Shown piece by piece: positions 3,275 through 58,446 of a stretch of DNA of 64,000 nt. Position 1 is the stretch's first letter. Every line of letters starts with the position of its first letter. The position numbers and the translations under genes are program-made. Origin of the DNA: Eledone cirrhosa (lineage: Eukaryota); contig OZ024740.1 in NCBI GenBank assembly GCA_964016885.1, positions 197,656,001-197,720,000 on the forward strand, in the 5' to 3' direction. Under the pieces are notes generated by a model. The model made no database searches and was not told the origin of the DNA. It worked only from the letters and a program-made list of their open reading frames with translations.

Positions 3275-5907
3275 TTCATCTGGTTTTATAATTTCACAAG
3301 GTTTTACCAATAGAGAGAGAGTCGGTTTCTAACATAGACACAAGACTCTCTCATTGGAATTTACACAACATCAACTAGGTAGATATGTATGTATGTATGC
3401 ATGCATGTGTAGATATGGATGTTATTGAATGTGTCGATGTGTATGTTTTGAGTTGTATGTGTGCATGTGTATATGCTTTGTATCTGTACATGTGTACATG
3501 CAGTTATTAGATGCAACATTTTTGGAATGTTTTACACATTTTTACTGTTCCATTAATGGATTGTACTTGTAGTTTCCTAACTAGTTGTGTTCTTTCTGTT
3601 CCTGTGAAGCCTAGCTTCTCAAGATTTGTATTGAGGCAGTTACTAACATATCCCAGTGTCCCAATAATCACAGGCATAAATCTGAAGGTGTAATCAGGGT
3701 GGAGAATCTGCAGATTTCTCATCAGTTCTGCATAAATATTCTCCTTTTCACTAATCTTTGATATTATATTGGCATCTGCTGGGCAGCTAATTTCCGCTAC
3801 TGTGCATGTTTTCTTCTCCCTGTCTCATATCATAATATCTGGTCTGTTATGCCTGCATTTTATTGGGGTTTTTACTGGAATATTACACCAGTACTCTTTC
3901 ATATTATGTACATGGATGTTTTCCACATTGTTGTAGCTTTTAATGTGTTTATTATCGGGGATACCTTTTTTACGAACTGCATTGTACAGTGTTTTGGCCA
4001 TTACATCATGCCTCATAGGTAGATAGTACCGCGATGACATCTTTGGACAGCTGCTAATGACATGGGTGATATCCTCGATGTTAGTTCTGCAGAGTCTGCA
4101 CTTGTTATCACATCTAGGTGTTTTGCCTGCATCCCTATCTCTTTTGTGAATCAGGTATTTCGTGCTAATCTCCTGTTCTTGGATTGCAAAAGCGTATCCT
4201 TCAAAGTGGGAGCCAATATAGCGGTTGTTGGTCCAAGATAGACTACTTTCCTTATTTCCTTATTTCCAAGATAGACTACTTTCCTACTTTCCTCTCTCTG
4301 GAGCTTCCTGGCAGCATATCCATGCATGATTTTTTGTTGACAGGCATGCAGTTTTTCATCCATGGATTCACTGCGATACTGCTGAGCGACATCCCTGGGT
4401 GTGAGTTTTTGATTATCACACAGGGAATATCTCTCAAGGAGTTCCTTCCCAACTCTCATGATCTTATCTGTTTCATGCAGATAGACTTGCTCGAGAAGCG
4501 GGCTCCTACGCTTCGAGGTTCGTAGATGTTGTCGGAGAGATATGATGCGACATTCAAATGTTGTCTGGACTGATGTTAGACCACTGCCTCCCTGCTTACG
4601 TTTCAAGTAAAGGCGGTCTATGTCACTGTTGATGTGGAAGTTTCCGGTGTTGCTCAGTATTTTTCGAATTCCAACATCAACTGCTCGGATTTCGTCTATC
4701 GTCCAATTGAGTATTCCAAACGTTGGTGTTAGGACAGGCACAGCAAACACATTGTGAGCCACTGTTTTGTTTTGCGCAGAGAGTTCCGATTACCAGACCT
4801 TTCTTAATCGGGTGTAGTATTCCCTGGTTACGCGTTCTTTATTACAGATACCATTAGAGGAAATGTTCTCATCTATCCCCAGGTATCTGTAACAGTCCTC
4901 ATCAGATATCGGTGAAACAGTTAGACCATTGATGACAATGTTGCTAGATTGGGTTGTTGTTTTCTCCGCTTTACAGTCATGTATGAGCATTTATCTTGGC
5001 CAAACTCCATTCCTATATCCTTTGAGAACGTTGTAACGAGGTCAAGATTTTTCTTCATCCCATCCATGTTCTTGGCATAGAGTTTCAGATCGTCCACAAA
5101 GAAGTTATGGGTTAGGTTCGTATTTCTGTCCTCCTGTGAGCCAATGATGTATCCCTCACATTTCTTGAGCAGAAAGGACAAGGGGTTTAATGATAAGATG
5201 AACAATATCACAGGGAGACTGTCCCCCTGAAATATACCCCTGCAATATTTTATTTTATCAGTGAAAATAGAGTCCTCCCTCTTTGTCTTTAACCTTAGGA
5301 TAGTAGCCCAAGAAGAAGACAGCCTCTCTATGGCTCTGACAATAATGTCTAGGACTTTAGCAAGTTGGAGGGCCTCTATCATCCAAGAGTAGGGAACAGA
5401 ATCGAAAGCTTTCCTGTAGTCCAGCCAGACTGTAGTCATATTCCTCCTAAGTTGTCGCACCTCCGATATCGCAGTTTTGTTGATTAGGAGTTGTTCAGCA
5501 CATCCCCAAACCCTTTTCTTTCCAGCTGCTTGTTCATCTGTGATGATGTTATTATTTTCACAGTGATCTTGGAGGAATAGGTTCAGGCAGGATGTATACA
5601 TCTTATACATCAGGTTCTGGCATGCAATGGGTCGGTAGTTTTTTGCCAAGTGGGTGTTTTTGTTCTTGGGGACCAGTAATGTTTGTGCTAATGTCAACCA
5701 TTCTGGTATAAGTGTATCTCCCTTAAGAACTTGTTGGTAGAGGTCAGTAAGATACCTCCGATATAATATTAGTTTTTTGTACCAGTAGCCGACAATCATG
5801 TCTCTTCCTGGTGTTTTCTTATCTTGGAGTTTTCCTATCACAGTCTCAAGGGTACCCTCACTTATTTCGTATGTTTTTGTTGTAGTGTAAGAGCAATAGT
5901 TCTTTCG
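3275..5907 (-). mobile_element. 5'-truncated R4/Dong-clade non-LTR retrotransposon (RT, CCHC knuckle, restriction-like endonuclease), decayed
   Basis: RT motifs NYRPIAC, WLDYRKAFDSVP, RGIFQGDSL, FFVDDLKLY, YRYLGI; then CRLC..HVISSC..RHD and RPDI, C-terminus PVIIGTLG. Several frameshifts and stops. Both ends abut (TATG)n. Confidence 0.88.
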
Positions 5908-6006
5908 GTATGTATGTATGTATGTATGTATGTATGTATGTATGTATGTATGTATGTATGTATGTATGTATGTATGTATGTATGTATGTATGTATGTATG
6001 TATGTA
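5908..6006. repeat. (TATG)n microsatellite
   Basis: Direct reading. Confidence 0.95.
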
Positions 6007-6049
6007 TATACACGCACATACATGCATCCCTATACATATATACATACAA

Positions 6050-6195
6050 AGAGGCAGCGAATTGGCTGAGTCACTAGAACGCCGGATAGAATTCTTCACA
6101 GCAATCCTCTCGGGTCTCCTCGCCCTGAGTTCAAATTTCGTCAAAGTGAACGTTGCCTTTCATCCTTCCGAGGACGATAAATAAAGTATAAGTCG
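6050..6195 (+). mobile_element. tRNA-derived Nin-like SINE (decayed)
   Basis: GGCAGCGAATTGGCTGAGTC..GAGTTCAAATT..TTGCCTTTCATCCTTCCGAGGACGATAAATAAAGTA. Confidence 0.6.
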
Positions 6196-6940: not shown

Positions 6941-7134
6941 GCATGCTACTGTACGTCTGTATACATATATGTATGTACGTATACATACATACTTACATTT
7001 AAGTAAGTGCCATACTAAGAGTGAGAAATGAAATTTCGTTTTCATTTTTTTTTTTCAATATATATATTAATATATATATATGCATATATATATGTATGTA
7101 GATATATGTATATATATATATACATATATATATA

Positions 7135-8013
7135 CGAGGTGTGTCAGAAAAGTTACAGGACTGTTGCCACAAAAGATTTATTTCAAACCCAAACTTCACA
7201 CTAAGAGTTTTTTCCTTCAAAGTAATCCCCCTGGAGTATGTAACTGTAATCTTAGCTCTCTGCAGCGATCAAACGTTTTTCTTCATAATTTTATATACAT
7301 GTCCTCTGTTTCAGGTCGTCAAACAATGAACACAGAGCAACGAACAAACTTGAAAACTCCGTCAGAAGCACTGGGATTGCTGCAGCAAGTGTATGAAGAT
7401 GAGACGATGTCACGCTCACGTGTTTTTGAGTGGTGCAAGAGGTTTAAAGAAGGACGCGAGGACGTGGAAGATGACCCTAGGAGCGGAAGGCCCCCAACAA
7501 CCAGGACTGAGGTCCACGTTGAGCGCGTCAGGCAGATGGTGCGTAGCGATCGTCGGCTGACTGTTCGACTGATGGCAAATGAGCTGGACATGAATCGGAA
7601 CAGCGTCTGGAAGATTCTCACTGAAGATTTGGGCATGCGGAAAGTCTGCGCGAAGATGGTGCCAAAACTGCTGAACGATGACCAGAAGGGTCGACTCATG
7701 CAAGTGTTCCAGGACATCTTCGAGCGTCTTGAAACCGAACCAGACTTGCTAGGGACAGTCATGGATCTTCGAGTACGACCCGGAGGGGACCCGTTTTGAA
7801 GACGTGGACGATATCAAAAAGGCCGTGACGACGGAACTGCGGAGGATCCCGGAAGAATACTTCCAGGAGTGCATGCAAGCGTGGCAGAAAAGGATGGACA
7901 AGTGCATTAGACTCCAGGGGGATTACTTTGAAGGAGAAAACTCTTAGTGTGAAGTTTGGGTTTGAAATAAATCTTTTGTGACATCAGTCCTGGAACTTTT
8001 CTGACACACCTCG
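7135..8013 (+). mobile_element. mariner DNA transposon, internally deleted, ~100 bp TIRs, TA target duplication
   Basis: TA|CGAGGTGTGTCAGAAAAGTT..AACTTTTCTGACACACCTCG|TA. Transposase remnant WCKRFKEGREDVEDDPRSGRP..KVCAKMVPKLL; most of the catalytic domain is missing; C-terminal GDYFEGE is present. Confidence 0.92.
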
Positions 8014-9567: not shown

Positions 9568-12500
9568 TCTATATATATAAAACTGATGTTGTCTGTGTGT
9601 CCTCATTTTTGCAAAGTCTATACAAATCCACATTTCTACTCTGATTGATTTCAAACTTGCATTTATATATTCCATGCGGTCTAAAGATATTAACTGCCCG
9701 CTTTTTCTTTCAATTTTCTATTGGTAAAGGGGTGTTAGGTGCCGGTTATCCATCTCCGTCGCGCTCTTATAATATCTGTCTGTATGTCTGGCTGTCTGCA
9801 TAACGTCAATCTGACGTATTATCTTCGCTGAATTCACACAGATAAAATCGATAAAGCTAAATACATGCTGTAACCCTCTCTCTTATACGATCGCTTCATT
9901 CCTCTCACTACCCTCAATCTCCTCTGCAACTCTCTTTAAAAGGTTACTGCCTCCGTCTCCATTACAGTTTAGGCACACACTTATATTTTACTTCAAATAA
10001 CACACACTTACATTTTACTTCAAATAACAAATATTCAAAAGCAACAGACGAATTTATAAAACAACAAACGTAACAATAACGACCTCTCTATAATTTAACT
10101 GCTTTACTCTCTCTGTCGCTCTTCACTCCCTATATGACAACACTGCAGAGAGAGAAACAATGTATATGATCAAATGGAGCGTTCCGTATATTCCCACTTT
10201 CTATATAATTTAACTGCTTTACTCTCTCTGTCGCTCTTCACTCCCTATATGACAACACTGCAGTCGAGCGTTCCGTATTGGCATACAGCTTATCTGGGGC
10301 ATTTTCAATCGGCGTATTGCAAACAACAACCCGCAAAATAACACTTCATATAACAGATTAATGCTATAGACATATGAATCGGAATGTAACCCGTGAACTT
10401 TTTCCTGGGCAAAATTATTCGAACAGACATGACCTCATTGCCAGAGTGTTCAGACTGAAACTGGCTAAACTCATGGCTTTAATAAAAAAGGTCAGGTATT
10501 TGGGGCTGTAAAATGTGACATGTTCACCGTCGAATGGAAAAAACGAGGGCTGCCACATGCTCACATTTTGATTTGGTTAGCTGATAAAATCAATTCAAAT
10601 GCCATAGACAGCTTCATTTCGGCTGAAATCCCTAACCCAGCAACTTACCAGGAATTACATGACATCGTCAAAGCTAACATGGTCCGTGTGCGTCGGGTCC
10701 TAATGAGCATCACACGTGTCTGAAAGGGGCGTCGTGCAGTAAGGGATACCCCCCAAAATGTGTTGACGAGACTCAGACTGGTGGCGATGGGTATCCCCTG
10801 TACTGGCGGAGAAGGCCCGAGAACGGTGGCTTCACCACAACAGTAAAGGGAGGTCAAGTCGATAATAAATGGGTGGTCCCTTACTGCCCGCTTCTCTTGA
10901 AGATGTTCAACGCCCACATCAACGTTGAGTTTTGCAACTCCGTCAAGTCTATAAAATACATATGCAAATATGTAAATAAGGGCTCTGATGAGGTCACAGA
11001 ATACCTGGCAGGGCGGTACATCAGTAGCAATGAAGCTTTTTGGGGCCTATTTGATTTCCCCCTACACCCCGCCATCGTACAGCTTGCGGTACATTTGGAA
11101 AATGGGCAAAGGGTTTACTTTACGGACCAAACCGCCGCCAAGCTGGCCGCCGATCCGAAAGAGACCACTCTGACAGGTTTCTTCAAACTTTGCCTGTCCG
11201 ATACATTTGCGCAAACAATTGTGTACTCCCAGGTTACATCCTACTTTATATGGTCGAAAAACACTTGGGTGCGAAGAAAGTCAGGTCAGGCTGTTGAAAG
11301 ACATCCTGGTGTAAAATTTGACAGCTGTCTTGAAAGGGTTTACACTACGCCCCCAAGTCAGCATTCTTCTGCATGAAGTTGTAGGCCCACAAAGTTTTCA
11401 GGACCTCAAAACTGTTGATGGAGAAATATGTGATACGTACCGGGAAGCCTGCTTTAAGCGTAGTCTTTTGGAAGATGATTCGCAATGGGATTCCACTTTA
11501 GCAGAGGGTGCTTTGTTGAAATCACCTAAAGGTCTACGGGAACTCTTTGCCATTTTGCTTCAAAAGTGTGAATTGGGTGATCCCAAATCTTTATGGGTCA
11601 AGTACAGAGACTTCATGTCTGAGGATTTCCTGCGTCTCGCTCATCTGCAGTATCCTTCAGTGGAAGTTGCTTACAGCGGCATTATCTACAACAGGGCACT
11701 CGTTGATATCGAGGACGCCCTCCTCGACATGGGTGGGAGTGAGTTGGCGACGTATGGCTTGCCGTCAACCGTCAGAGGAAGCTAACACGTTTGCCCCGGA
11801 TTTGTTGGGGGAAACAGCATATGACATCGAATCTCTTTCCCAATAATTAGAGGAAAATGAGCCCAAACGTCTGTCGGACCAAAGGTTGGCCTATTTAACT
11901 ATCATTGACGTGGTTCAAAATCAGACTGGGGGTATTTTCTTTCTCGATGCTCTTGGGGGTACCGGAAAAGCTTTTGTAACAAAATTGATTCCCGCTAAGA
12001 TTCGTCAGGAGAAAAAAATTGCGTTGGCCGTTGCATCGTCCGGGATCGCTGCTACTTTGCTGCCGAGAGGCAGGACACCACATTCAACCTTTAAACTCCC
12101 CTTGGATTTAGAAAAAACTGAGACACCAACATGCAATATCAGCAAGAGTTCACACGAAGCTCTGGTTCTCAAAAAATGTCGCCTCATTGTTTGGGATGAG
12201 TGCACAATGGCACACAAGGGTGCCCTTGAGGCATTGGACAGGACCCTGAAAGACATTAGGGATTCTATGGCTCCTATGGGTGGCGTAACCCTTCTGCTAT
12301 CAGGGGATTTTCGGCAAACGCTGCCTGTCATTCCCAAAGGGACAAGAGCTGATGAAGTGCGTGCCTGCCTTAAGTCGTCCACGTTGTGGCCCCAGTTGAA
12401 AACTTTGTACCTGAGCACAAATATGCGTGCTCATTTGCATGGTGACAACATGTCTGCAGCACTTGCTCAGAACATTTTAGCACTTTGGTGAGGGCAAAGT

Positions 12501-13556
12501 CCCTGCGGATGACAAGGGCGGCATAGCAATCGACTCCCTGTGCAACATTGTGAGCAGCCCTTCTGACCTTTGGGAGGCAGTTTTTCCTAATGTGTCATCT
12601 AATTTTAAAAACTTCGATTGGCTCAGCGAAAGAGCCATCCTTGCTCCGAAAAATGCCATGGTTAATTTTATTAACGAGCAGCTGATTGACAAAATTCCCG
12701 GTAAAGAGCACATCTTCAAATCTATCGACCGGACGTCAGACCCCGACGATATCGTTAATTATCCGGTTGAGTTATTAAATTCCTTTGAGCCCCCAGGGCT
12801 CCCACCTCACATTCTTAAGCTTAGGGTTGGCTGTCTCATTATGCTAATAAGGAACTTGCACCCACCAGAGCAGTGCAACGGTACTCGCATGGTCGTCAAG
12901 TCAATGACGTCCCACTTGATTGAGGCCACCATTGTAACGGGGTACGGGAGAGGGGAGAATGTTTTCATTCCAAGGATGAACCTTTTCTCCTCGGCATTAC
13001 ATATCCCGTTCGATTTCCGGCGATCCCAATTCCCGGTGAGACCATGTTTTGCCATGTCCATTAACAAGTCACAAGGGCAAACATTGTCGGTGGCAGGCAT
13101 CCATTTGGGGGAGACATGCTTCTCCCATGGTCAACTTTATTTTGCCTGTTCTCACGTAGGGAGCAGGAATGCACATTTTGCTTACACTCCTCAAGGGATG
13201 ACACGCAATATCGTCTACAAAGAGGTGCTATAGATGTTGGCGCAGGTGTTGGAGGTGTTGGAGCTATGCCGCCTGGAAAACTATTTCCTGGTAGGGTCAC
13301 CCATGGCGGACAGATGTGACACCCAGCGGCATCAGGGCCACCATCTTGCAACTTTGGTCTGCTAAATTCGCTATTGGAAGATTATTAACCCATCATTGAT
13401 TGTCCAAAATGCTAATTGGTTGGTAACTTTTAATAACCGGTTCAACTGCTTTATGCACTTAATTGATAAACTTATTCACTTTCAAGCCACGTTTACCTGT
13501 ATGTAACTTTTCATAGCAAATGAATAAAGCCGAGCAACGCCGGGCTAAACTGCTAG
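9568..13556 (+). mobile_element. Helitron 1 (both termini present, RepHel N-terminus deleted)
   Basis: A|TC start at 9568; 3' hairpin GCCGAGCAACGCCGGGC then CTAG|T at 13553-13557; RepHel remnants inside. Confidence 0.88.
10370..13233 (+). pseudogene. Helitron Rep/PIF1 helicase, frameshifted
   Basis: HUH motif VEWKKRGLPHAHILIW, SIKYICKYVNKG, Walker A DALGGTGKAF, VWDECTM, LLSGDFRQ, FAMSINKSQGQT, FSHGQLY, spread over several frames. Confidence 0.9.
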
Positions 13557-14103: not shown

Positions 14104-14833
14104 CATTACAGTTTAGAACAACGACAAATATTCACCCTCTTCGTTCCTCATACATCAAATATCAACATTTAAAAGGCCGATAACACTAAATACATACTGC
14201 TCTCTCAACGTTACATTTTACATCAAATAACAAATATTCAAAAGCAACAGATGAATTTATAAAACAACAAACGTAACAATAACGACGCTTAAGCGTTCAT
14301 TTACTTGAATCTCAACAAAGACATTATATTTTATTTGACTTTGCCTTTCATCCTTACGGGGTCGATAAAATAAAGTACCAGTAATGCACTGGATAATTGC
14401 TGGCCTTGTGCCAAAAGAAGAAACAATTATATTTTATTGTTGTCCTTTTTGTAATTTTTCTTTCTTTGTTGTTCTCAATATGAGACAAAAAATTAATGAG
14501 AAAACTTTTTTAACGAACGTCCGATTTCGATGATTTATTTTCCAGTGTGCTCCAAAATAACGCCCCTGTTTACGCTCTTTTGTGCTATAACTCAGACAGG
14601 CTTGGCTTACAGGTTTGACCTATTATTTGACGTGCATTCTTCATAGATCTTAGTACTTACTTTCCACTTACTCACCGTTCAATTGAAAGTTTTAGCTACT
14701 TCCCCTTTCATGCTCCATTACCTGCATAAATATTTACGTGTTCGGTCCTGCTACAATATAGTACTCACTTTAAACTAATTCAAAGTTCATTTGAAAATTT
14801 TCGCTACCAAACACATTCTTTGAATCTACGGTC

Positions 14834-17800
14834 ATGTCACCCCAAAAAAGACCACGACTTAGTCGCCAAACTAAAGCTGCTTCTGCTGCCAAACGAAGAA
14901 GAGTTACAGAGTTGTCCGTAGAAAAATTGACTCGGTTGTCACAAAATGCAACTCGAAATGCAATTACCCGGGCAACCGAGACAGAAAAAAAGAGGAGCAC
15001 CTGCCTTTCCGGAAATGCATTTGTAACTGCAGTTGCACGTGCAGCGCAAACTGATGAACAACATTCTCGACGACGAAGCAAAAATGCGGCCTCTACCGCT
15101 GCGGCACGTGACGGTGAGGACGAAGAACACCGTTACAGTCGACGACGAACAGATACCGCCTCAACTGCTGCGTCACGTGCTGCCGAGGACGAAGGGCAGC
15201 GGTCCAGACGTCAACGTACGGACACCGCTTCAACAGCTTCCGTTCGCGCATCAGAGACTGCGCAAATTCAATTACAAAGGCTAAACGCCAACGCACTCCG
15301 CAGGATTGCTAAACGAGGTACACAGAGGATCAGTTGCACTCAGTGGTCTCATAAGGCTTTCCACTATGACCCAACAGTAAATTATGCACTGATGCCAGAA
15401 GTTCAGATTGGATCCATGTCTGTCATTTGCCAATATTGTCGGGCAAAAAAATGGCCTGGGGAGACTTCAGGGAAGTGCTGCCCTGACGGCAAAGTGAAAC
15501 TGCCTCCTCTACAGGAACCACCACAACCTTTGAAGTCTCTACTGACCGGTGCCACAGCGGAGTCAGAACACTTGCTTCGATGTTCCAGGAGATACAACGC
15601 TGCCTTCCAAATGACCACTTTCGGAGCTAACATCATACGCGAGGACGGCTTCATGCCTACCTTTAAAGTTCAAGGACAAATTTACCACAGAATCGGTTCG
15701 CTACTGTACACGACAGACGGACAGCCCCAGTTCCTACAGCTATACTTTGTCACCGACTATTTGGACCAAGCGGAACGACGCGCTTCAGTTTCGCCTGGCA
15801 CAGACATGAAAATTCTGTTGCAACTCGAGAGAATGCTGCACGAAAACAACTACAATCGCAGTTTTAAATGCGCATTGGAGGCTGCTTCGTTGCCAAATTT
15901 TGCTGTTATAATCGACGCTGACAGGAAACTACCAGGCACCCACGCCAGACGTTTTAACACTCCCACGTGCATTGAAATAGCTGTGCTTCTTCATGGAGAA
16001 TAGTATAACAAACGGGACATCATACTTCAGTGTAGGGACAATAGTCTGCAACGGATCAGCGAGACGCATAGGTCCTACGACGCATTCCAATATCCCCTAA
16101 TTTTCCCATTCGTTGACGACGGATACCACTTTGGAATTCCTTTGTGCAACAGCAACAAAACTGTTTCCTCTATGCAATTCTACACCTACCGATTCATAGT
16201 CCGCGAATGCTGCTTTAACCAACTCCACCGTGCAAGAGTACTCTTCAGCCAGCTTGCTGTAGACGCGTGCGCAAAGATGGAATCTGAAAGGCTGTGCTAC
16301 ATAAGGAACAATCAAGCACGCCTTCGTTCGGACAGCTACATTCACTTACGGGATGGAGTAAGGAATGACGTCGATCCCGAGAACCTAGGAAAACATTGTA
16401 TCCTTCCGTCGACCTTAATTGGGAGTCTCCGATACATGAGTGAACGCACACAGGATGCTATGACGTACGTGCGTCTCTACGGCAGACCGGATCTCTTCAT
16501 CACTTCAACATGAAACCCTAAGTGGAATGAAATTACCGCGGAATTATTCCCCGGACAAAGGGCGTCAGACAGACACGATCTTACGGCACGAGTCTTTCAC
16601 TTGAAGTTGACAAAACTTATTGAACTCCTAAAATCAGGTAAGGCCTTTTGACCTGTTAGGTGCTACGTATACACCGTTGAGTGGCAAAAGAGAGGCCTGC
16701 CACACGCTCACCTACTCATTTGGCTGATAACGAAAATCAACGCAAGCAGCATTGACAGCATCATTTTAGCAGAAATACCCGATCCAAAATTGGACAGAGA
16801 ACTCCACAACATCGTCACTGCTCACATGGTTCATGGGCCATGCGGAAACGGTTTCAACATGAATTCTCCATGCATTAAAGAAAGAAGGTGCACCAAGAGG
16901 TATTCTAGGCCATTCCTCCGAGAAACTCGGACAAGTGGCGACGGTTATCCATTATACCGCCGTAGGGAGCCAGCGGACGGAGGAATTGTTGCGAAAACTC
17001 CACATCACAACGTCGACAACCGGTGGATTGTACCCTACTGCGCACTTCTGCTTAAATTGTTTAACGCCCACATTAACGTTGAATACTGCCACTCCGTCAA
17101 ATCGATAAAGTACGTCTGCAAGTATATCAATAAGGGGTCCAATGCTGCGTCCTTTGGTCTTACAATGGAGAACAACCGAAACGAAGTAACTCGATACCAG
17201 GTCGGCCGATACATCAGCAGCAATGAAGTGTTCTGGCGATTCTTCCACTTTGCAATACACCATAACTACCCCCCCCCCCCCCAATCAAACAGTTGGCGGT
17301 ACACCTTGAAAACGGTCAAAGAGTCTACTTCATCGCCTCCACCGCTGCTGAGATAGCAAAGGAACCCAAGGACACCACACTTACGGCATTTTTTAAGTTG
17401 TGCCGAAACGATCCCTTCGCCAAGACCATCTTCTACTCTCAGGTGCCATCATACTACACATGGAACACAGACAACAGAATTTGGTTAAGAATGGTGAAAG
17501 GACAACTCGTCGAGGGACATCCAGACATTAAAATGTCCCCTACCCTTGGAAGAGTGTACACCATTCATCCTAACCAACAGGAATGCTTTTATCTCCGCCT
17601 TCTACTGCATGACGTGGTAGGACCGACATCTTTCGACGATATGAAAACAATCAACGGAGAGCTTTGTACTTCATTCCGCGCAGCCTGCCTTAGACCAGGT
17701 CTACTGGAAGATGGCGCTCAGTGGGATGCGACATTGGAGGAGGCAGCTACAATACGCTCAGCGCGAACTCTTCGGCAACTCTTTGCGGTGCTACTGCAGA

Positions 17801-19462
17801 CATGCGAGTTAAGCGACCCTGCATCCTTATGGGACAAATACAAAGAGGAACTTTCCGACGACTACATACACCAAGGACAACTGCTACTCCCTCATTCCGA
17901 CGTACGACTCAGCGACGAATTCTTCAACAACGCTCTCATTGACATCGAGGACAAAATCCTAACTGCCGGCGGAAATGACCTTCCATTCTATGGACTGCCA
18001 AAAGTTCAGCGAACGGGCTCCGACAAACTTCCGACGGGCATAATTAAGGAAACTGCCTACAACGTCCACGCCCTCGAACTGTTCATCAACGAAAACGAGC
18101 CGAAATTGTTGCAGGACCAACGGCAGGTGTATGACACAGTTTGCACTTCCATTCGTCAACGAAGAGGAGGTATCTTCTTTTTGGACGCCCCAGGAGGAAC
18201 TGGTAAAACATTCGTCAATAAACTCCTCCTCACCAAAGTGCGACAGCAGAAAGGAATCGCCCTGGCTGTGGCTTCTTCTGGCATTGCCGCAACCCGGAGG
18301 TAAGACAGCTCATTCCGCATTTAAACTGCCATTCAACACGACTTCAGATGACACAATAACCTGCAACATCACCAAGGACTCTGACAAAGCTGAAGTCTTG
18401 AAAAGATGCCACCTAATTGTGTGGGACGAATGCACAATGGCCCATAAAGGGTCCCTTGAGGCATTAGACAGGAGCCTACGAGACATCAGGGAATGCAACC
18501 GGCTGATGGGAGGAGTACCTCTACTGCTGTCTGGCGATTTTCGACAAACTCTTCCAGTTGTTCCAAAAGCCACCAGGGCCGACACTGTGGGGGCTTGCAT
18601 TAAGTCATCTCCTCTGTCGCAGGAAGTGACAATCCTGACCCTCACAACAAACATGAGAGCTCAACTGCTCGGCGACCACTCAGCAGCCGACTTCTCACAG
18701 GACTTCTTAACAGTTGGTGACGGCATTGCACCTTCAGATGCAGCTGGAGAAATGGCAGTCTCGAAAGTAGGCACCGTTGTCGACACTGTTGACGACCTCA
18801 CAGCCTCGGTCTTTCCCGATATGGCCATCAACTACAAAAACACGAGTTGGCTATGCGATAGAGCCATATTGGCTCCCCAAAATGTCTCAGTTGCAAAAAT
18901 CAATGAGGACCTTCTGCAACGCATTCCGGGAAACCTCCGTACCTACAAATCTGTGGACAAAGTGGTGGAGAAAGATGAGGTTGACGATTTTCCAACAGAA
19001 TTTCTCAATTCTTTAGACCTCTCTGGACTGCCACCTCATGAACTGCGCGTCAAAGTTGGGACACCAGTCATGCTGTTGAGGAACCTGGAACCACCACGTC
19101 TCTGCAACGGAAAACGGTTAGTGGTAAGAAACCTCCTGCCGCATGTAATTGAAGCCACAATTCTCACGGGCTGCGGCGCTGGAGAAAACGTCTTCATACC
19201 CAGAATACCATTAACTCCATCAGGTACGGAATGCCCCTGTACTCTGCGCCGACTTCAATTCCCCGTTAAACTTTGCTTCGCGATGTCAATCAACAAGTCC
19301 CAAGGCCAAACGCTATCAACGGCAGGCCTGCATTTAGCCCAGCCGTGCTTCTCACACGGCCAATTATACGTCGCATGCTCAAGAGTGGGATGCAAGCAGA
19401 ACTTATTCATACTTGCGCCCAAAGGCAGAACAAAAAATGTGGTCTACAGAGAGGTGTTGTGA
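14834..19462 (+). pseudogene. Helitron RepHel (STPR-like repeats, Zn finger, HUH Rep, PIF1 helicase) with several stops and frameshifts
   Basis: CQYCRAKKWPGE..CCPDGKV; GRPDLFIT; VEWQKRGLPHAHLLIW; SIKYVCKYINKG; DAPGGTGKTF; VWDECTM; FAMSINKSQGQT; FSHGQLYVACSRV. Lesions near 16001, 16100, 16511, 16650, 17275 and 18300. Confidence 0.93.
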
Positions 19463-20819: not shown

Positions 20820-22561
20820 ATGAAAACAGGGAGAAACAGACGATTATTAGGAAGAAAAACATTTTTTTTTCTTTTTTATTTCTCTCTCTCTTTTTTCTGG
20901 GTTAGAAAATGATTAACGAAATGTTTTTGTGTGAAGTGTTAAGGTATTAGTTGATTTATTTATTATTTAACAATGGCATTTATCTATCTATTTATATATT
21001 TAATAATTGTCTATTACTGGTTTCAGCATTTTTATGCATTATCAAATACTACAAACCGACAGACTCCAAACAATACCTTCCATTCAACTCGTGCCACCCT
21101 AGACACACCAAAATGGCAATTCCTTATAACCTAGCCAGAAGGATCTGCACAATAGTTTCAGATAAATACACATGCTACACACGACTAGAATAATTAAAAA
21201 ACACACTTATCAGCAGAAACTACCCACCATCCCTAATCAACAATGGATTCTAACGTGCCCTAAAATTAGACATCCAGGAACTCAAACACCCCAAACCCAG
21301 CAATGAACCGCAACACAAAACTCTACCATACATCTCCACACACAACCCCCCTCAACAACGAGGCATTCGACACCATCCTCCAGAACATTCCTTTACTAGA
21401 CAGAGACCCAAGAATGAACAAAATCCTCCAAACACACAACATCATAAAGAGCAAAAGACAACATAAATCCATAAAAAACATCCTTACACAAGCCAAAATC
21501 CAACAAACCCTCACAATGAACCCTACAGTAACAATATGCGGAAGGCCCAACTGTGGCATATGCATACATCTAATAGAAGGTTCAACATTCCATTTTAAAC
21601 AAGGACAGCGTTTCACAGTTAAACACAACTTTACATGTGCATCTGAAAACCTAATCTATGTTTTGACCTGCTCAGGTTGTCAAGAGCACTACATAGGACA
21701 GACAAAAAACAGCCCCCGTTAACGTATGACCGTCCATAAATCACAAATTAAAATACAGGAATACAGAAAAATTGCTCACAACCAACATCCAAACTTTAAA
21801 ATTTTCCACATTTAAAAATTCATAGACAACGCTTCTTTCATCCAACGTACCAATAAGGAAACATATTTCATTAACAAATTCTAACCTCTACTTAATGCAC
21901 TAAACTTCGGACCAAACTAAAACTGCAACAAATAATCAAACATTTACAAGAGTTTCCTACCCCACACCCTGCCTAATCCTTTTTCTTAAATAAATTAAAT
22001 ATCATCCAGCATGAATTGCCTCCCCCTGCATATTAACTCTCTAAAAAGGGAAAACATATCACACCTCAGTCCACCATTTGCCTCCATCATGGAATTATAG
22101 ATCAACTAAGCACCCTTGCTATATAAACACATTTTGATCTGCTTAACTTCAAGAACTATGCCTGTAAATAACATTATTCTTTCTTTCACATTGAATTTTT
22201 ATGCTCTACATAACGCCCATTTTTTTCTTTTTTCTTTTTTCTCTTCACTTCATAAACCTTGTTTGTAAATAACATTATTCTTTTTGCACCTTCTCTTTAA
22301 CATGTGCGACACCACACTAATACATTTCACTATCATTTGATAATGCATAAACATGGTGAAACCGGTAATAGACAATTATTAAATATATAAATAGATAAAT
22401 AAATGCCATTGTTAAATAATAAATAAATCAACTAATACCTTAACATTTCACACAAAGTAAAACATTTCGTTTTAATCATTTTCTAACCCGGAAAAAAGAG
22501 AGAGAAATAAAAAAGGAAAAAAATATATTTTTCTTCCTAATAATCGTCTCTTTCTCCCTGT

Positions 22562-41842: not shown

Positions 41843-42206
41843 TGGTGGCTGCCAACTCGTTTTCGAGTACGGCCACTACTTTATATCCATGTAGGAGAAC
41901 CCCTACCGATGCGCTGAACAAGTGTGACTTTTTAGTCCAGCCAGCGACTTGAAAACTCTGGTACAAACTTGTGACAATTATTGACACATAGTGCTGGGCC
42001 CATGGTACCATGTGACGACAAGTGCAGAGAGATCTCCAGATATAAAGCAATGCCTGTGCCGTGAAGCTTTTATAGTGAGCAAAGGCACTGCACACAGCCA
42101 GTCCCACTCTCTTAACGAAGATGATATTTACCAAAAAGAAGAACAAGTCAACATCATTGGATATTATTACGGTTGCAGAATTCTAGGAGAAGGAAAACTC
42201 TGATAT
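41843..42206 (-). mobile_element. dispersed copy of the RTE-derived non-autonomous element, with short 5' inversion
   Basis: 41843-42177 is the reverse complement of the 3' part of the 56119-56724 unit; 42175-42206 (GCAGAATTCTAGGAGAAGGAAAACTCTGATA) is in the opposite orientation; (CATA)n on both sides. Confidence 0.85.
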
Positions 42207-42213
42207 ACATACA

Positions 42214-45426: not shown

Positions 45427-45866
45427 AGGGGGTGTAACTTGGAGTTACTGCAAGTTCACCCGGGAGAGCTCTCGATGTTTAGGTTCACTTCTGTGATGAG
45501 GTGTAGAGCTATACAGAGTGTAATATATTGAAAGGATAACAAGGACGATTGATTACTCCTTCATTACATTTATTGGTAGGTGACGCGCGTTTCGCCACTG
45601 ATCAGCTCAAGGTTCGATCTGTATCGATCCTACCCGACTCAATAATCGGCGGCTTGACGGACCTTTTAAAATGCTATGAGAAAATGAAATACATGCTATC
45701 TGGTAAAGCCAGAATTTCAAGAGTTTGACAAAATGAGTTGTTTTGATTGGTGGGAAGAATCAAAGGGGTGTACTGGCCTGTAGTGTGTGTGGGGGTGGAT
45801 GTGATGATGTGATGTTGGTGACGGTCGCTGGCTGTGATGGGCTGTGGTGTGGTGGTGGCGGGATGG
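45424..45866 (-). mobile_element. inverted pLTR/3' end of the Naiad-type PLE
   Basis: The reverse complement of 45760-45866 is C/A-rich like the element's 3' region (48500-49080); a hammerhead-like scaffold plus AATAAA lies on the minus strand; abuts (TA)n. Confidence 0.6.
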
Positions 45867-48300
45867 ACTTATTACTAAAGCAGACAAATAATTTCATCAG
45901 GAGGATCCGTTGGAGGGCCTACCACCACTACAACAACAGGAGGGCCCCCGGATCAAATGACAATTCCACCAACCACATAAAAAGACCTTTTAAATCAAAG
46001 AAAAACCCACCGTACAACCCACTCCTAGAGGAGTTTGAGGGCAGGATCATTACCATGGTCCGGACCATTAGATTTAGGAAACCACCGCGAAACCCTGACA
46101 GAAATGCATTCCTGTCTGGGCTCGCCTCTACTGTAAAAAAGATCAGGAATAGCCCTGGCATCATCGTACCAGCCGATAAAACAGGAAACCTATACAATTT
46201 GGAGTACAAAACTTACAACAAATGTATTACAAACGAAATCGCTAAAATATACAAACCATCAACACGAGAAAACTAGCACACATAAACAAACAGGCGAAAA
46301 CAATAACGACCGAACTGAGTATTGACGAGAGGACACCGAGACTATCTATTAAAGACCATAAACCGGACTTCCAGTCAAAACTACCGGTCAGGCTCATAGC
46401 CCCGTCTAAATCGGACCTAGGTACACTTAGCAAATCAATCATTGACCGAATTATACCTGAACTTAGAAATAGAACTAAACTCAGCCTATGGTCTTGTACA
46501 AAGGAGGTAATCGACTGGTTTTGAGCCATTGAAACTAAGTCGAATGTTCGATTAGTCCAATTGGACATTACGAACTACTACGCATCTATATCCCCAATCA
46601 TCCTTAACAAGGCACTGATCTCAGCCATGAACAGATCAAGCCTCATTAGAAAGGAAGTGGACATAATACTAACAGCTAGGAAAACTTTACTAAAATTCGA
46701 CGGTAGATTGTGGGAACGACAGAATAGACCAGATAGCTTCGACATCACCATGGGATCGACTGACTCCGCACAGGTTATAGTAGGCATATACCTCATAAAT
46801 ATATTAACAGACGAGATCCCCTCCTTGGGCGGTGGCTTATACCGTGACGATGCCCTATTATTGACCCGTGGACTCAATAATAGCCAATTAGATAGACTAC
46901 ACAAAAGACTTAGGTACATCTTTAAGACCCAAGGATTAGCGGTAGAAATTGAACCTAACAGTAGGACAGTAAACGTTTTAGATGTCACCCTAGAATTAGA
47001 CTCAGGCCTCTACCGTCCATTTCAGAAACCTAAGGAAATCTTAAATACGTCAACAGACACTCCAACCACCCTAGGAGCATAATTAACTCAATAGTTAAAA
47101 GCGTCTCCAACAGAGTGTCCACCCTGTCGGCCAATAGAAATATCTTCAACCAGCACGCGGAATACTACAACTCTACACTTGTAAACGCTGGTTCCACTGA
47201 GGAGATTTGCTACATCGACCCAAATAGAACCGTAACGCCGCTAAACATAACCGTACCCTTAGAAACGAACATAGAAGAAATCTCCACACCTACGACAAAT
47301 AATAACCTAAGACCCTCCGTAGCCGGCAGGGCGGCCAGCGTCACACACAACTGCCAAGGAGATAAAGCCATACTCTCCAACCCCAATAAGGACTCCGACT
47401 ATCGCACACCTTCGCGTAGCAATAGAGACAAAGACATAACGCCAATAGATTACTAGGAACCCCTATGACATATACGCATGACCAAAACACACACAAACTA
47501 CCATCCAACCACAAAAACCTCACTAAACACCGCAGAAACCGAAGTAGACCTGTCACATGGTACAACGCCCCGTATTCTATACACGTCGCCACCAATATAC
47601 CGGGAACCTTCTTCAGGGCTCTCGAACAATCTTTTCCACGCACACATAAATACCACAAGCTCTTCAATAGACACACTGTAACATTCTCTTTCTCCACAGC
47701 ACCAAATCTAGGCCACACAATAGCAAACACTAATAGGACAAACATACGAAAACACAAGGTTGCCCCACAACAAACCACCACCACAACCCAGAACGAAATC
47801 ACACACACAACACAACAACCCATACACCAGACCCACACCGCATGACACCAACCGCCAACGTGCCACCACACCGGTTACACCCAACTGCAACTGCAAGAAA
47901 CGGGCCGAATGCCCACTAAACGGGGAGTGCCTCGTTAAAAACATTGTTTACCGGTGTGATGTCACACCCAGCACTAAGGAGTACTCATATATAGGTGCGA
48001 CATCCACTACGTTTAAGGAGCGCTGGTATAGTCACAGAAGCTCCTTTAAACATTGGCTGAAACGATCCCAAACCAGACTGGCCGATTGGATCTGGGACCT
48101 CAAGGACAGGAATATCGAACCCCAGATCTCGTGGTCAGTGAAAAGACGCGTGGCACAACTCCCCAATGACAGAAACCACTGCAGGTTGAGGCGGCGGAAA
48201 TAATTAAATTAAAATCTGCTATAAACTATATGTCGGACATAATTGTCAATTGCAGACACACCAGGCTGAACACTTTTTCTGCACAAACATTCGGGGGAGG
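45867..48300 (+). pseudogene. Naiad-type Penelope-like element RT plus GIY-YIG, decayed
   Basis: FIRRIRWRA, PADKTGNLY, KDHKPDF, RLIAPSKSDLG, DITNYYASI, FDITMGSTDSAQ, GLYRDDAL, WYNAPYS, CNCKKRAECPLNGECL, NIVY..YIGATSTTFKERWYSH, terminal CRH; several frameshifts. Confidence 0.88.
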
Positions 48301-56047: not shown

Positions 56048-56083
<36 letters not shown>

Positions 56084-56118
56084 TGTATGTATGTATGTAT
56101 GTATGTATGTATGTATGT

Positions 56119-58446
56119 CAGGTCACCAGTTGGTGCTACTGGTAACATGTATCCCAGTACAACCTGTCTCATGGTCGGGTCGTTGGCGACTAAACTGGCA
56201 ACCCCACCAAGGTTTCTTGGTGAGGAGGGTGACTTTGGACATCCTGCAGGACAAAAAAAAGAACCTGTCAAAGGCCAAAGGAGCTCTTAAGAGTCAATGG
56301 CCATCCCAAATCACCAGGAGAGATGACCCCTTAGCCTTTGTCAAGGCAGAATTCTAGGAGAAGGAAAACTCTGATGTAACACCTGCAACCTTGATGGTAT
56401 CCAATGATGTTGACTTGTTCTTCTTTTTGGTAAATATCATCTTGGTTAAGAGAGTGGGACTGGCTTTGTGCAGTGCCTTTGCTCACTATAAAAGCTTCAC
56501 GGCACAGGCATTGCTTTATATCTGGAGATCTCTCTACACTTGTCGTCATATGGTAACATGAGCCCAGCACTATGTGTCAATAATTGTCACAAGTGTAGTG
56601 TTTGTACCAGAGTTTTCAAGTCGCTGGCTGGACTAAAACGTCACACTCGTTCAGCGTATCGGTAGGGGTTCTCTTACATGGATATAAAGTAGTGGCCGTA
56701 CTCGAAAACGAGTTGGCAGCCACCATGTATGTATGTATGTATGTATGTATGTATGTATGTATGTATGTATGTATGTATGTATGTATGTATGTATGTATGT
56801 ATGTATGTCAGGTCACCAATTGGTGCTACTGGTAACATGTATCCCAGTACAACATGTCTCATGGTCGGGTCGTTGGCGACTAAACTGGCAACCCCACCAA
56901 GGTTTCTTGGTGAGGAGGGTGACCCTTTAGCTTTTGTCAAGGCAGAATTCTAGAAGGAAAACTCTGATATAACACCTGCAACCCTGATGGTATCCAATGA
57001 TGTTGACTTGTTCTTTTTGGTAAATATTATCTTGGTTAAGAGAATGGGACTGGCTGTGTGCAGTGCCTTTGCTCACTATAAAAGCTTCACGGCACAGGCA
57101 TTGCTTTATATCTGGAGATCTCTCAACACTTGTCGTCACATGGTAACATGGGCCCAGCACTAAGTGTCAATATTTGTCACAAGTGTAGTGTTTGTACCAG
57201 AGTTTTCAAGTCGCTGGCTGGACTAAAAAGTCACACTCGTTCAGTGCATCGGTAGGGGTTCTCCTACATGGATATAAAGTAGTGGCCGTACTCGAAAACG
57301 AGTTGGCAGCCACCATGTATGCATGCATGTATGTATGTATGTATGTATGTATGTATGTATGTATGTATGTATGTATGTATGTATGTATGTCAGGTCACCA
57401 CTTGGTGCTACTGGTAACATGTATCCCAGTACAACCTGTCTCATGGTCGGGTCGTTGGCGACTAAACTGGCAACCCCACCAAGGTTTCTTGGTGAGGAGG
57501 GTGACTTTGGACATCCTGCAGGACTAAAAACAAAACCTGTCAAAGGGCAAAGGAGCTCTTAAGAGTCAATGGCCATCCAAAATCACCGGGAGAGATGACC
57601 CCTTAGCCTTTGTCAAGGCAGAATTCTAGGAGAAGGAAAACTCTGATATAACACCTGCAACCTTGATGGTATCCAATGATGTTGACTTGTTCTTCTTTTT
57701 GGTAAATATCATCTTGGTTAAGAGAGTGGGACTGGCTTTGTGCAGTGCCTTTGCTCACTATAAAAGCTTCACGGCACAGGCATTGCTTTATATCTGGAGA
57801 TATCTCTGCACTTGTCGTCACATGGTACCAAAGGCAAAGCACTATGTGTCAATAATTGTCACAAGTGTAGTGTTTGTACCAGAGTTTTCAAGTCGCTGGC
57901 TGGACTAAAAAGTCACACTCGTTCAGCGCATCGGTAGGGGTTCTCCTACATGAATATAAAGTAGTGGCCGTACTCGAAAACGAGTTGGCAGCCACCATGT
58001 ATGTATGTATGCATGCATGTTTGTATGTATGTATGTATGTATGTATGTATGTATGTATGTATGTATGTATGTATGTATGTATGCATGCATGCATGTATGT
58101 ATGTATGTATGTATGTATGTATGTATGTATGTATGTATGTATGTATGTATGTATGTATGCATGCATGCATGTTTGTATGTATGTATATATATATGTAAGT
58201 ATGTATGTATGTATGTATGTATGTATGCACGTTTGTATGTATGTATGTATGTATGTATGTATGTATGTTTGTATGTATGTATGTATGCATGTATGTATGT
58301 ATGTATGTATGTATTCCGGGAGAGATGACCCCTTAGCCTTTGTCAAGGCAGAATTCTAGGAGAAGGAAAACTCTGATATAACACCTGCAACTCTGATGGT
58401 ATCCAATGATGTTGACTTGTTCTTCTTTTTGGTAAATATTATCTTG
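56119..58446 (+). mobile_element. tandem array of a ~0.6 kb non-autonomous RTE-derived element separated by (TATG)n
   Basis: Units 56119-56724, 56809-57314 (~95 bp internal deletion), 57391-57996 and partial 58316-58446. The 3' part encodes HKCSVCTRVFKSLAGLKSHTRSAHR* (C2H2) and ends in hairpin GTGGC-CGT-ACTCG-AAAA-CGAGT-TGGCA-GCCAC before (ATGT)n. Confidence 0.85.

What the first reader, a model, noticed from the sequence alone, without database searches (positions are those of the whole stretch)
56119..58446. Tandem bipartite RTE-derived element with (TATG)n spacers
Seen: three full units starting at the same base (CAGGTCACC) after (TATG)n and ending at the same base, plus a partial fourth and a dispersed copy at 41843. 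There is no tRNA head and no RT. The 3' end keeps a C2H2 finger (CSVC..F..LAGLKSH...H) and stop codon, then a stem-loop and (ATGT)n tail. Established: RTE ORFs often end in such a finger, and 5'UTR+3'end RTE derivatives exist (Bov-A from BovB). The CTAGGAGAAGGAAAACTCTGA motif resembles RTE 5' UTRs as I recall them (unverified). Inference: a non-autonomous family whose own tail creates the next target, giving self-nesting arrays. The units differ from each other by many substitutions.
Basis: partly seen in the sequence, partly recalled or inferred. Interest (0 to 1): 0.72.

Follow-up and report, generated by a model that had tools for sequence, protein, structure and literature searches.

The report
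Microsatellite-homing RTE retroposon that forms chains
The four units are separate copies of a 609-base non-coding jumping element (about 26,000 copies in this genome) that sits one way round inside TA/TATG repeats and likely piled up here by repeated insertion; elsewhere the same element has likely been copied as two- and three-unit chains and has likely lent its front end to a distantly related jumping gene.

Summary
The array is real. It is part of a ~26,000-copy bipartite non-autonomous RTE derivative: an RTE 5' UTR (1-~400) joined to an RTE 3' end (C2H2 remnant, stop, hairpin). The unit starts 2 bases earlier than reported. A decayed full-length sister RTE shares both ends (5' 72%); the exact parent was not found.

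Head-to-tail clusters are normal for the family: 14 of 99 gaps were under 1.5 kb (0.8 expected), all same-strand. The window's three full units each group with dispersed copies, so this array arose mostly by independent insertion.

The '(ATGT)n tail' is not fixed: 3' repeat type tracks 5' repeat type, and target duplications occur. It is mostly a pre-existing, strand-specific target.

Two extras came from other loci. (1) Eleven loci on eight contigs share one complex spacer and position-specific dimer/trimer units, some 5'-truncated, so multimers likely retrotransposed whole. (2) The element's head replaces the native 5' end of a second RTE-type LINE at four junctions (19 of 30 loci).

Each ingredient has precedent; the combination is a new variant.

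The parts
56050..56116 (+). (TATG)n target repeat upstream of U1
56117..56725 (+). U1, full 609-base unit; sister to dispersed copy L283 (4 shared rare sites, support 0.94)
56726..56806 (+). (TATG)n spacer
56807..57315 (+). U2, unit with a private ~94-base deletion between two TGAC words that removes a predicted hairpin
57316..57388 (+). (TATG)n spacer
57389..57997 (+). U3, full unit of a young subfamily (0.5-0.7% from copies on other chromosomes)
57389..57790 (+). RTE 5'-UTR-derived part (unit 1-~402), including the conserved RTE 5'-UTR motif also found in Ceph-SINEs
   Evidence: 72% to the 5' UTR of RTE L212; motif in PMC5786205 supplement
57389..57662 (+). Head (unit 1-274) that is fused to a second RTE-type LINE at 14 of 30 loci
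57788..57937 (+). RTE ORF C-terminal remnant with one C2H2 finger and stop codon
57938..57997 (+). 3' UTR with predicted hairpins; the terminal stem has a compensatory pair change in sister RTE B2
57998..58315 (+). interrupted (TATG)n tract
58316..58446 (+). U4, fragment (unit ~198-328): 5' end at the family's truncation hot spot, 3' end missing
41843..42207 (-). dispersed 5'-truncated copy (41843-42178) with an inverted 5' piece (42175-42207), between TA/TATG repeats

Best explanation
The units are copies of a high-copy, non-coding, internally deleted RTE retrotransposon that lies strand-specifically in (TA)n/(TATG)n repeats, and this array likely built up by separate insertions into one repeat tract. 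The element is likely transcribed from its own RTE 5' UTR without a terminator, so the RNA runs into the downstream repeat. An RTE enzyme supplied in trans likely nicks a TA/TATG repeat and primes on the repeat-derived RNA end. Priming just behind the unit gives a monomer and splits the target into two usable targets, with a 10-20 base duplication. Priming further down would copy spacer and next unit, giving multimer retrocopies. Shown: anatomy, copy number, flank correlation, strand bias, clustering, unit relationships, shared-spacer multimers. Inferred: promoter, read-through, RNA-DNA priming and identity of the helper LINE.
For: 25,924 exact matches to a 25-base 3' motif, 0 to the reversed control. 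Both ends homologous to RTE L212 (5' 72%, nhmmer E=2e-62; 3' E=0.005; RVT_1, endonuclease and C2H2 pieces). Sister families share the layout. Flanks are TATG-phase 0.47/0.43 against CATA-phase 0.03/0.02 (177 copies). Duplications of 12 bases or more in 32 of 95 complex-flank copies against 12% of swapped pairs. 19 of 34 position-ordered copies are 5'-truncated. Clustering: 14 of 99 gaps under 1.5 kb against 0.76 expected, 14 of 14 same strand; 26 of 71 element-centred loci have a neighbour against 1 of 60 other LINE loci. U3's array mates rank 131 and 178 of 202; U1 pairs with L283, U2 with L128. Multimers: 11 loci on 8 contigs share spacer and unit-position alleles, with different outer flanks and 5' ends cut inside unit a (L259, L260) or inside the spacer (L300).
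Against: No parent >90% identical at both ends in three negative-pattern searches (10, 18 and 32 matches; 10, 18 and 30 inspected; with 40, 46, 92), so the current helper is unknown. U1 and U2 share two rare sites and were sisters (support 0.82) in the 144-copy tree; this dissolved with 203 copies because L283 carries both sites, but U2's placement is weak (0.75). Local duplication does occur in the family (L145, L265, L345-347). Passive survival in microsatellites or repeat growth after insertion cannot be separated from targeting without empty sites. The one search set includes loci picked by patterns that exclude repeat 5' flanks and a few overlaps with the window itself.
Confidence: 0.8

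Rival explanations
1. The element writes its own (TATG)n tail at each insertion, and that tail is the next target.
For: 3' flank starts with TGTA or TATA in 145 of 177 copies, and some copies with unique 5' flanks still have a repeat 3' flank. RTE elements are reported to generate 3' microsatellites (PMC2887409 abstract).
Against: 3' repeat type follows 5' repeat type (p=7e-11). Pure (TA)n lies on both sides of e.g. L004; L248 has no tail.
Confidence: 0.2
2. The window array arose by local tandem duplication or unequal crossover of one insertion.
For: U1 and U2 share two rare sites. Duplicated arrays exist elsewhere in the family. TSD-mediated SINE arrays are described in bivalves (PMC11481361 passages).
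Against: U3 belongs to a young subfamily 3.5-4.6% from its neighbours; U1 shares 4 rare sites with a copy on another chromosome; within-array distances equal random-pair distances.
Confidence: 0.1
3. The unit is a chimera whose 5' part derives from the second RTE-type LINE (family A, L111).
For: Unit 1-274 is 97-98.5% identical to the 5' end of family A copies.
Against: Family A has its own different 5' end in 11 of 30 loci, is joined to the head at four different points, lacks the C2H2 3' end, and unit 1-402 is continuous in older sister families. The direction is therefore element to LINE.
Confidence: 0.05
4. The shared-spacer multimers were spread by DNA-level copying (segmental duplication, gene conversion or Helitron capture), not through RNA.
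For: No RNA evidence was obtained; microsatellite spacers can converge (best control score 0.65 against lineage median 0.72).
Against: Outer flanks differ, 3' ends stop exactly at a unit end, 5' ends are variably truncated, and L300 has the same target minisatellite on both sides of the block.
Confidence: 0.1

Closest known systems
Bipartite non-autonomous RTE LINEs (Bov-A, RTESINE1/2, WALLSI3, RTE-N2_Lch; Kojima 2018, PMC5786205, parts 1-4 of 5 and supplement search)
   Same: 5' UTR from the extreme 5' end joined to the 3' end of an RTE, no RNA-derived head; carries the conserved RTE 5'-UTR motif aligned there for OegopSINE and RTE-3_BF.
   Different: Keeps ~50 codons with a C2H2 finger; lies almost always within TA/TATG repeats; forms open-ended chains; exact parent not found.
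Microsatellite-targeting non-LTR elements Waldo/Mino (ACAY, AC), Kibi/Koshi (TC, TTC), Dong (TAA) (PMC3812793 passages)
   Same: Insertion inside a simple repeat in a fixed orientation.
   Different: That list names no RTE element and no TA/TATG target for a non-LTR element; specificity here looks loose (TA and TATG, occasional unique sites).
Dimeric and tandem SINEs (Bov-A2, Alu; jerboa Dip multimers; PMC10702118 passages) and bivalve SINE arrays (PMC11481361 passages)
   Same: Tandem copies; some SINEs amplify as dimers.
   Different: Here monomers dominate and a dimer/trimer lineage moves with a 250-340 base host microsatellite spacer; the trimer's middle unit is a recombinant of the outer two.
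LINE 5' switching (tobacco SolRTE, bioRxiv 10.1101/2022.11.04.512097 abstract; L1 chimeras, PMC13174262 abstract)
   Same: A LINE body acquires a new 5' end and amplifies.
   Different: The donor is identified as a non-autonomous derivative of another RTE lineage (RT 34% identical), captured at four junctions.
RTE-2_OV of Octopus vulgaris (PMC9115989 passages)
   Same: RTE with a C2H2 finger, long 5' UTR and a microsatellite directly after the ORF.
   Different: Sequence not compared: motifs were absent from the supplement files searched, and 4 files were not searched.

Membership tests
Bipartite non-autonomous RTE LINE | 5' part homologous to an RTE 5' UTR | tested here: met
   72% to L212 over unit 17-400, same first bases; motif in PMC5786205 supplement
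Bipartite non-autonomous RTE LINE | 3' part homologous to an RTE 3' end | tested here: met
   C2H2, stop, hairpin and terminal motif align with RTE families B2, C and L071; weak at DNA level (E=0.005)
Bipartite non-autonomous RTE LINE | no RT/endonuclease coding capacity | tested here: met
Bipartite non-autonomous RTE LINE | a single autonomous parent sharing both ends closely | tested here: inconclusive
   only a 72% sister found
Bipartite non-autonomous RTE LINE | TPRT footprints (5' truncation, target duplication, 5' inversion) | tested here: met
Bipartite non-autonomous RTE LINE | helper RT tree placement in the RTE clade | not tested
   clade assigned from single-ORF endonuclease-RT layout, 5'-UTR motif and recalled motifs; no Repbase/Dfam on hand
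tRNA/5S-headed SINE (incl. Ceph-SINE) | pol III RNA-derived head | tested here: not met
   no tRNA, no Rfam match at gathering score
Ribozyme-headed non-LTR element (HDV-like, twister) | [quoted passage not shown] | tested here: inconclusive
   no ribozyme family listed; covariation term +0.74 in 7 rows; no descriptor search run; intact multimers argue against efficient cleavage
Microsatellite-targeting non-LTR element | same repeat on both sides in fixed orientation | tested here: met
Microsatellite-targeting non-LTR element | sequence-specific endonuclease cleavage | not testable with these tools
   needs enzyme or de novo insertion assay
Satellite / local tandem duplication | array units closer to each other than to dispersed copies | tested here: not met
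   (U1/U2 were weak sisters)

The most novel reading that the evidence does not exclude
A terminator-less RTE derivative that homes to TA/TATG repeats turns its own pile-ups into new mobile units: arrays are transcribed through host microsatellite, recombine into longer chains and are retrotransposed whole, giving an RNA route for seeding tandem repeats. Its 5' head acts as a portable promoter repeatedly captured by another LINE lineage.
Probability: 0.55. Interest if true: 0.65.

Novelty: new variant of a known kind. Interest (0 to 1): 0.5.

Why it matters
It gives a countable case of how interspersed repeats become tandem repeats. One family shows all three routes (re-insertion, local duplication, multimer retrotransposition) with diagnostic sites. 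It suggests strand-specific microsatellite homing in the RTE group, which the review passages read here do not list among targeting clades. It names the donor of a LINE 5' switch, so promoter capture can be tested directly. In practice, TA/TATG microsatellite markers in this animal will often sit beside these elements.

Tried and rejected
Parent search: protein homolog search with the 49-residue remnant found nothing; the representative search gave only generic zinc-finger proteins; RVT_1 search gave mostly one other LINE family, CR1-like by recalled motifs, with no match to the unit in 30 loci; L132 looked like the parent but is a recombinant of RTE B2 and this element's 3' end; slippage-variant hits were ordinary copies. 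Family A as parent was rejected. Ribozyme: no Rfam support, and folding of the head is not better than shuffles (z=-1.4, -0.4). Whether the 274-junction LINE copies are one clade is unresolved (3 changes on a 22-row tree; 8 of 30 loci left out as too short). Expression: no RNA holder listed; contigs of four coded runs carry the majority-type unit, used for no claim. A sequence look-up in earlier findings returned nothing. Literature searches did not show this family; Repbase/Dfam, subscription journals, 4 supplement files of PMC9115989 and the supplement of PMC13282606 were not seen.

Full report
Observation. The window holds U1 (56117-56725), U2 (56807-57315, ~94-base internal deletion), U3 (57389-57997) and fragment U4 (58316-58446), head to tail with (TATG)n between them, and a reverse copy at 41843-42207 with an inverted 5' piece. 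Units differ by 3.5-4.6%. The genome is a 3.0-Gb, microsatellite-rich animal assembly; I infer an octopod cephalopod from its repeats but did not establish it.

Family. A 25-base 3' motif matches exactly 25,924 times (control 0). The best copies on other chromosomes are 99% identical to U3. Position-ordered copies are a median 1.8% from the majority (25 copies), and 15 of 34 are full length.

Origin. Unit 1-~402 aligns at 72% with the 5' UTR of a full-length but frame-broken RTE (family B2, L212), which starts with the same six bases and ends in C2H2 remnants, a hairpin and a related terminal motif. Two more RTE families (C; L071) and their own short derivatives share this layout. The terminal hairpin has a two-sided pair change between this element and B2. 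Three negative-pattern searches did not find a close parent, so the current helper is unknown.

Target, not tail. In 138 of 177 copies both flanks are simple repeat, and their type agrees (74/21/8/35, p=7e-11). TATG-phase content is 0.47/0.43 against 0.03/0.02 for the opposite strand. Duplications of 12 bases or more occur in 32 of 95 complex-flank copies against 12% of swapped pairs (a 60-copy set gave p=8e-6). The element ends at CCACCA(T) and has no fixed tail; a minority have a repeat only on the 3' side, so tail carry-over also happens or is not excluded.

Arrays are normal. Among the first 100 listed matches, 14 of 99 gaps are under 1.5 kb (0.76 expected), all same-strand, including two four-unit runs. 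Ten adjacent pairs from those position-ordered arrays differ by 2.2-5.5%, like random pairs (median 4.0%). In a 203-copy tree U3 sits in a young subfamily, U1 pairs with L283 (4 shared rare sites, 0.94) and U2 with L128 (0.75). With 144 copies U1 and U2 had been weak sisters (0.82). So this array is best read as sequential insertions, U3 likely last. Local duplication occurs elsewhere (L145, L265, L345-347).

Multimer retrocopies. Eleven loci on eight contigs share a 250-340 base complex spacer (alignment score per base median 0.72, minimum 0.39, 101 pairs; controls 0.16, maximum 0.65, 390 pairs) and position-specific alleles: six a-c dimers, three a-b-c trimers, one a-b and one b-c (51 of 58 pattern matches examined). 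Unit b has the 5' alleles of c and the 3' alleles of a, as expected if the trimer arose from the dimer by template switch or unequal crossover. Outer flanks differ, every block ends at a unit 3' end, L259 and L260 are cut inside unit a and L300 inside the spacer. These are footprints of reverse transcription of read-through RNA. They also argue against efficient self-cleavage at each head; no ribozyme was found.

Head capture. A second LINE (family A: endonuclease-RT, DUF6451, different tail, RT 34% identical to B2) has its own 5' end in 11 of 30 loci. In 19 it carries this element's head instead, joined at unit ~274 (14), ~282 (1), ~298 (1) or ~588 (3) (30 of 88 candidates seen). The head is 97.4-98.5% identical in 8 copies checked. 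Head-bearing bodies separate from native ones with 93/91 support in a 22-row tree. Repeated identical junctions suggest amplification after capture, which implies the head works as a promoter (inferred).

Mechanism. Shown: anatomy, distribution, strand bias, relationships. Inferred: pol II transcription from the head (as proposed for bipartite LINEs in PMC5786205), no terminator, priming by pairing of repeat-derived RNA with a nicked repeat (compare the model in PMC6007223, abstract and discussion read). 5' truncations cluster at unit 194-208 (16 of 104, 3.1 expected), at the foot of a predicted hairpin that U2's deletion removes, consistent with RT stalling or skipping.

Known versus new. Bipartite RTEs, microsatellite-targeting LINEs of other clades, dimeric SINEs and LINE 5' switching are all described. 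I found no paper on this family or on this combination in seven searches of an open library; PMC13282606 (part 1 of 3 read) and PMC8501958 (parts 1 and 3 of 9) do not mention it in what I read. Earlier AI notes on this genome report similar ideas; they are not independent support. Verdict: new variant of a known kind, interest 0.5.

Noticed in passing
window 4151-6159 (-): RT-coding LINE (RVT_1), R4/Dong-like by recalled motifs, with a (GTAT)25 tract at 5908-6007 abutting the RT-coding stretch, on the strand opposite to that used by the RTE derivative.
   Followed up: partly
window 10678-13233 and 14795-19462 (+): Two sets of Helitron Rep/PIF1 helicase reading frames, frame-broken.
   Followed up: partly
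window 7071-7799 (+): Mariner-like transposase fragment (HTH_32, HTH_48).
   Followed up: partly
window 21270-21722, 45737-48203 (+): Frames resembling Penelope RT/GIY-YIG by recalled motifs; the two tested had no Pfam hit.
   Followed up: partly
L132:1146-1694 (G000:C1:241.70 Mb): RTE B2 body joined to this element's last ~190 bases at a 3-base overlap: a tail swap between families.
   Followed up: yes
L112:1829-1990: Unit 1-~160 fused directly into the family A reading frame: a fifth head junction, one copy seen.
   Followed up: partly
L345-L347 (G000:C18:21.116 Mb): Three tandem copies sharing one 5' inversion, so a locally duplicated array.
   Followed up: partly
L010, L016, L062 (RTE family C 3' UTR): A compound (GT)/(TTA)/(TA)/T-rich microsatellite lies inside the 3' UTR of family C in several copies, apparently carried as part of the LINE.
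   Followed up: no
runs X3-X8: Runs under four organism codes hold 75-96% of the unit's words; contigs of three laid runs carry the majority-type unit. Could be related species or transfer; not resolved.
   Followed up: partly
G000:C21:32459630-32459695 (L349): Two unit starts only 43 bases apart; fetched, not analysed.
   Followed up: no
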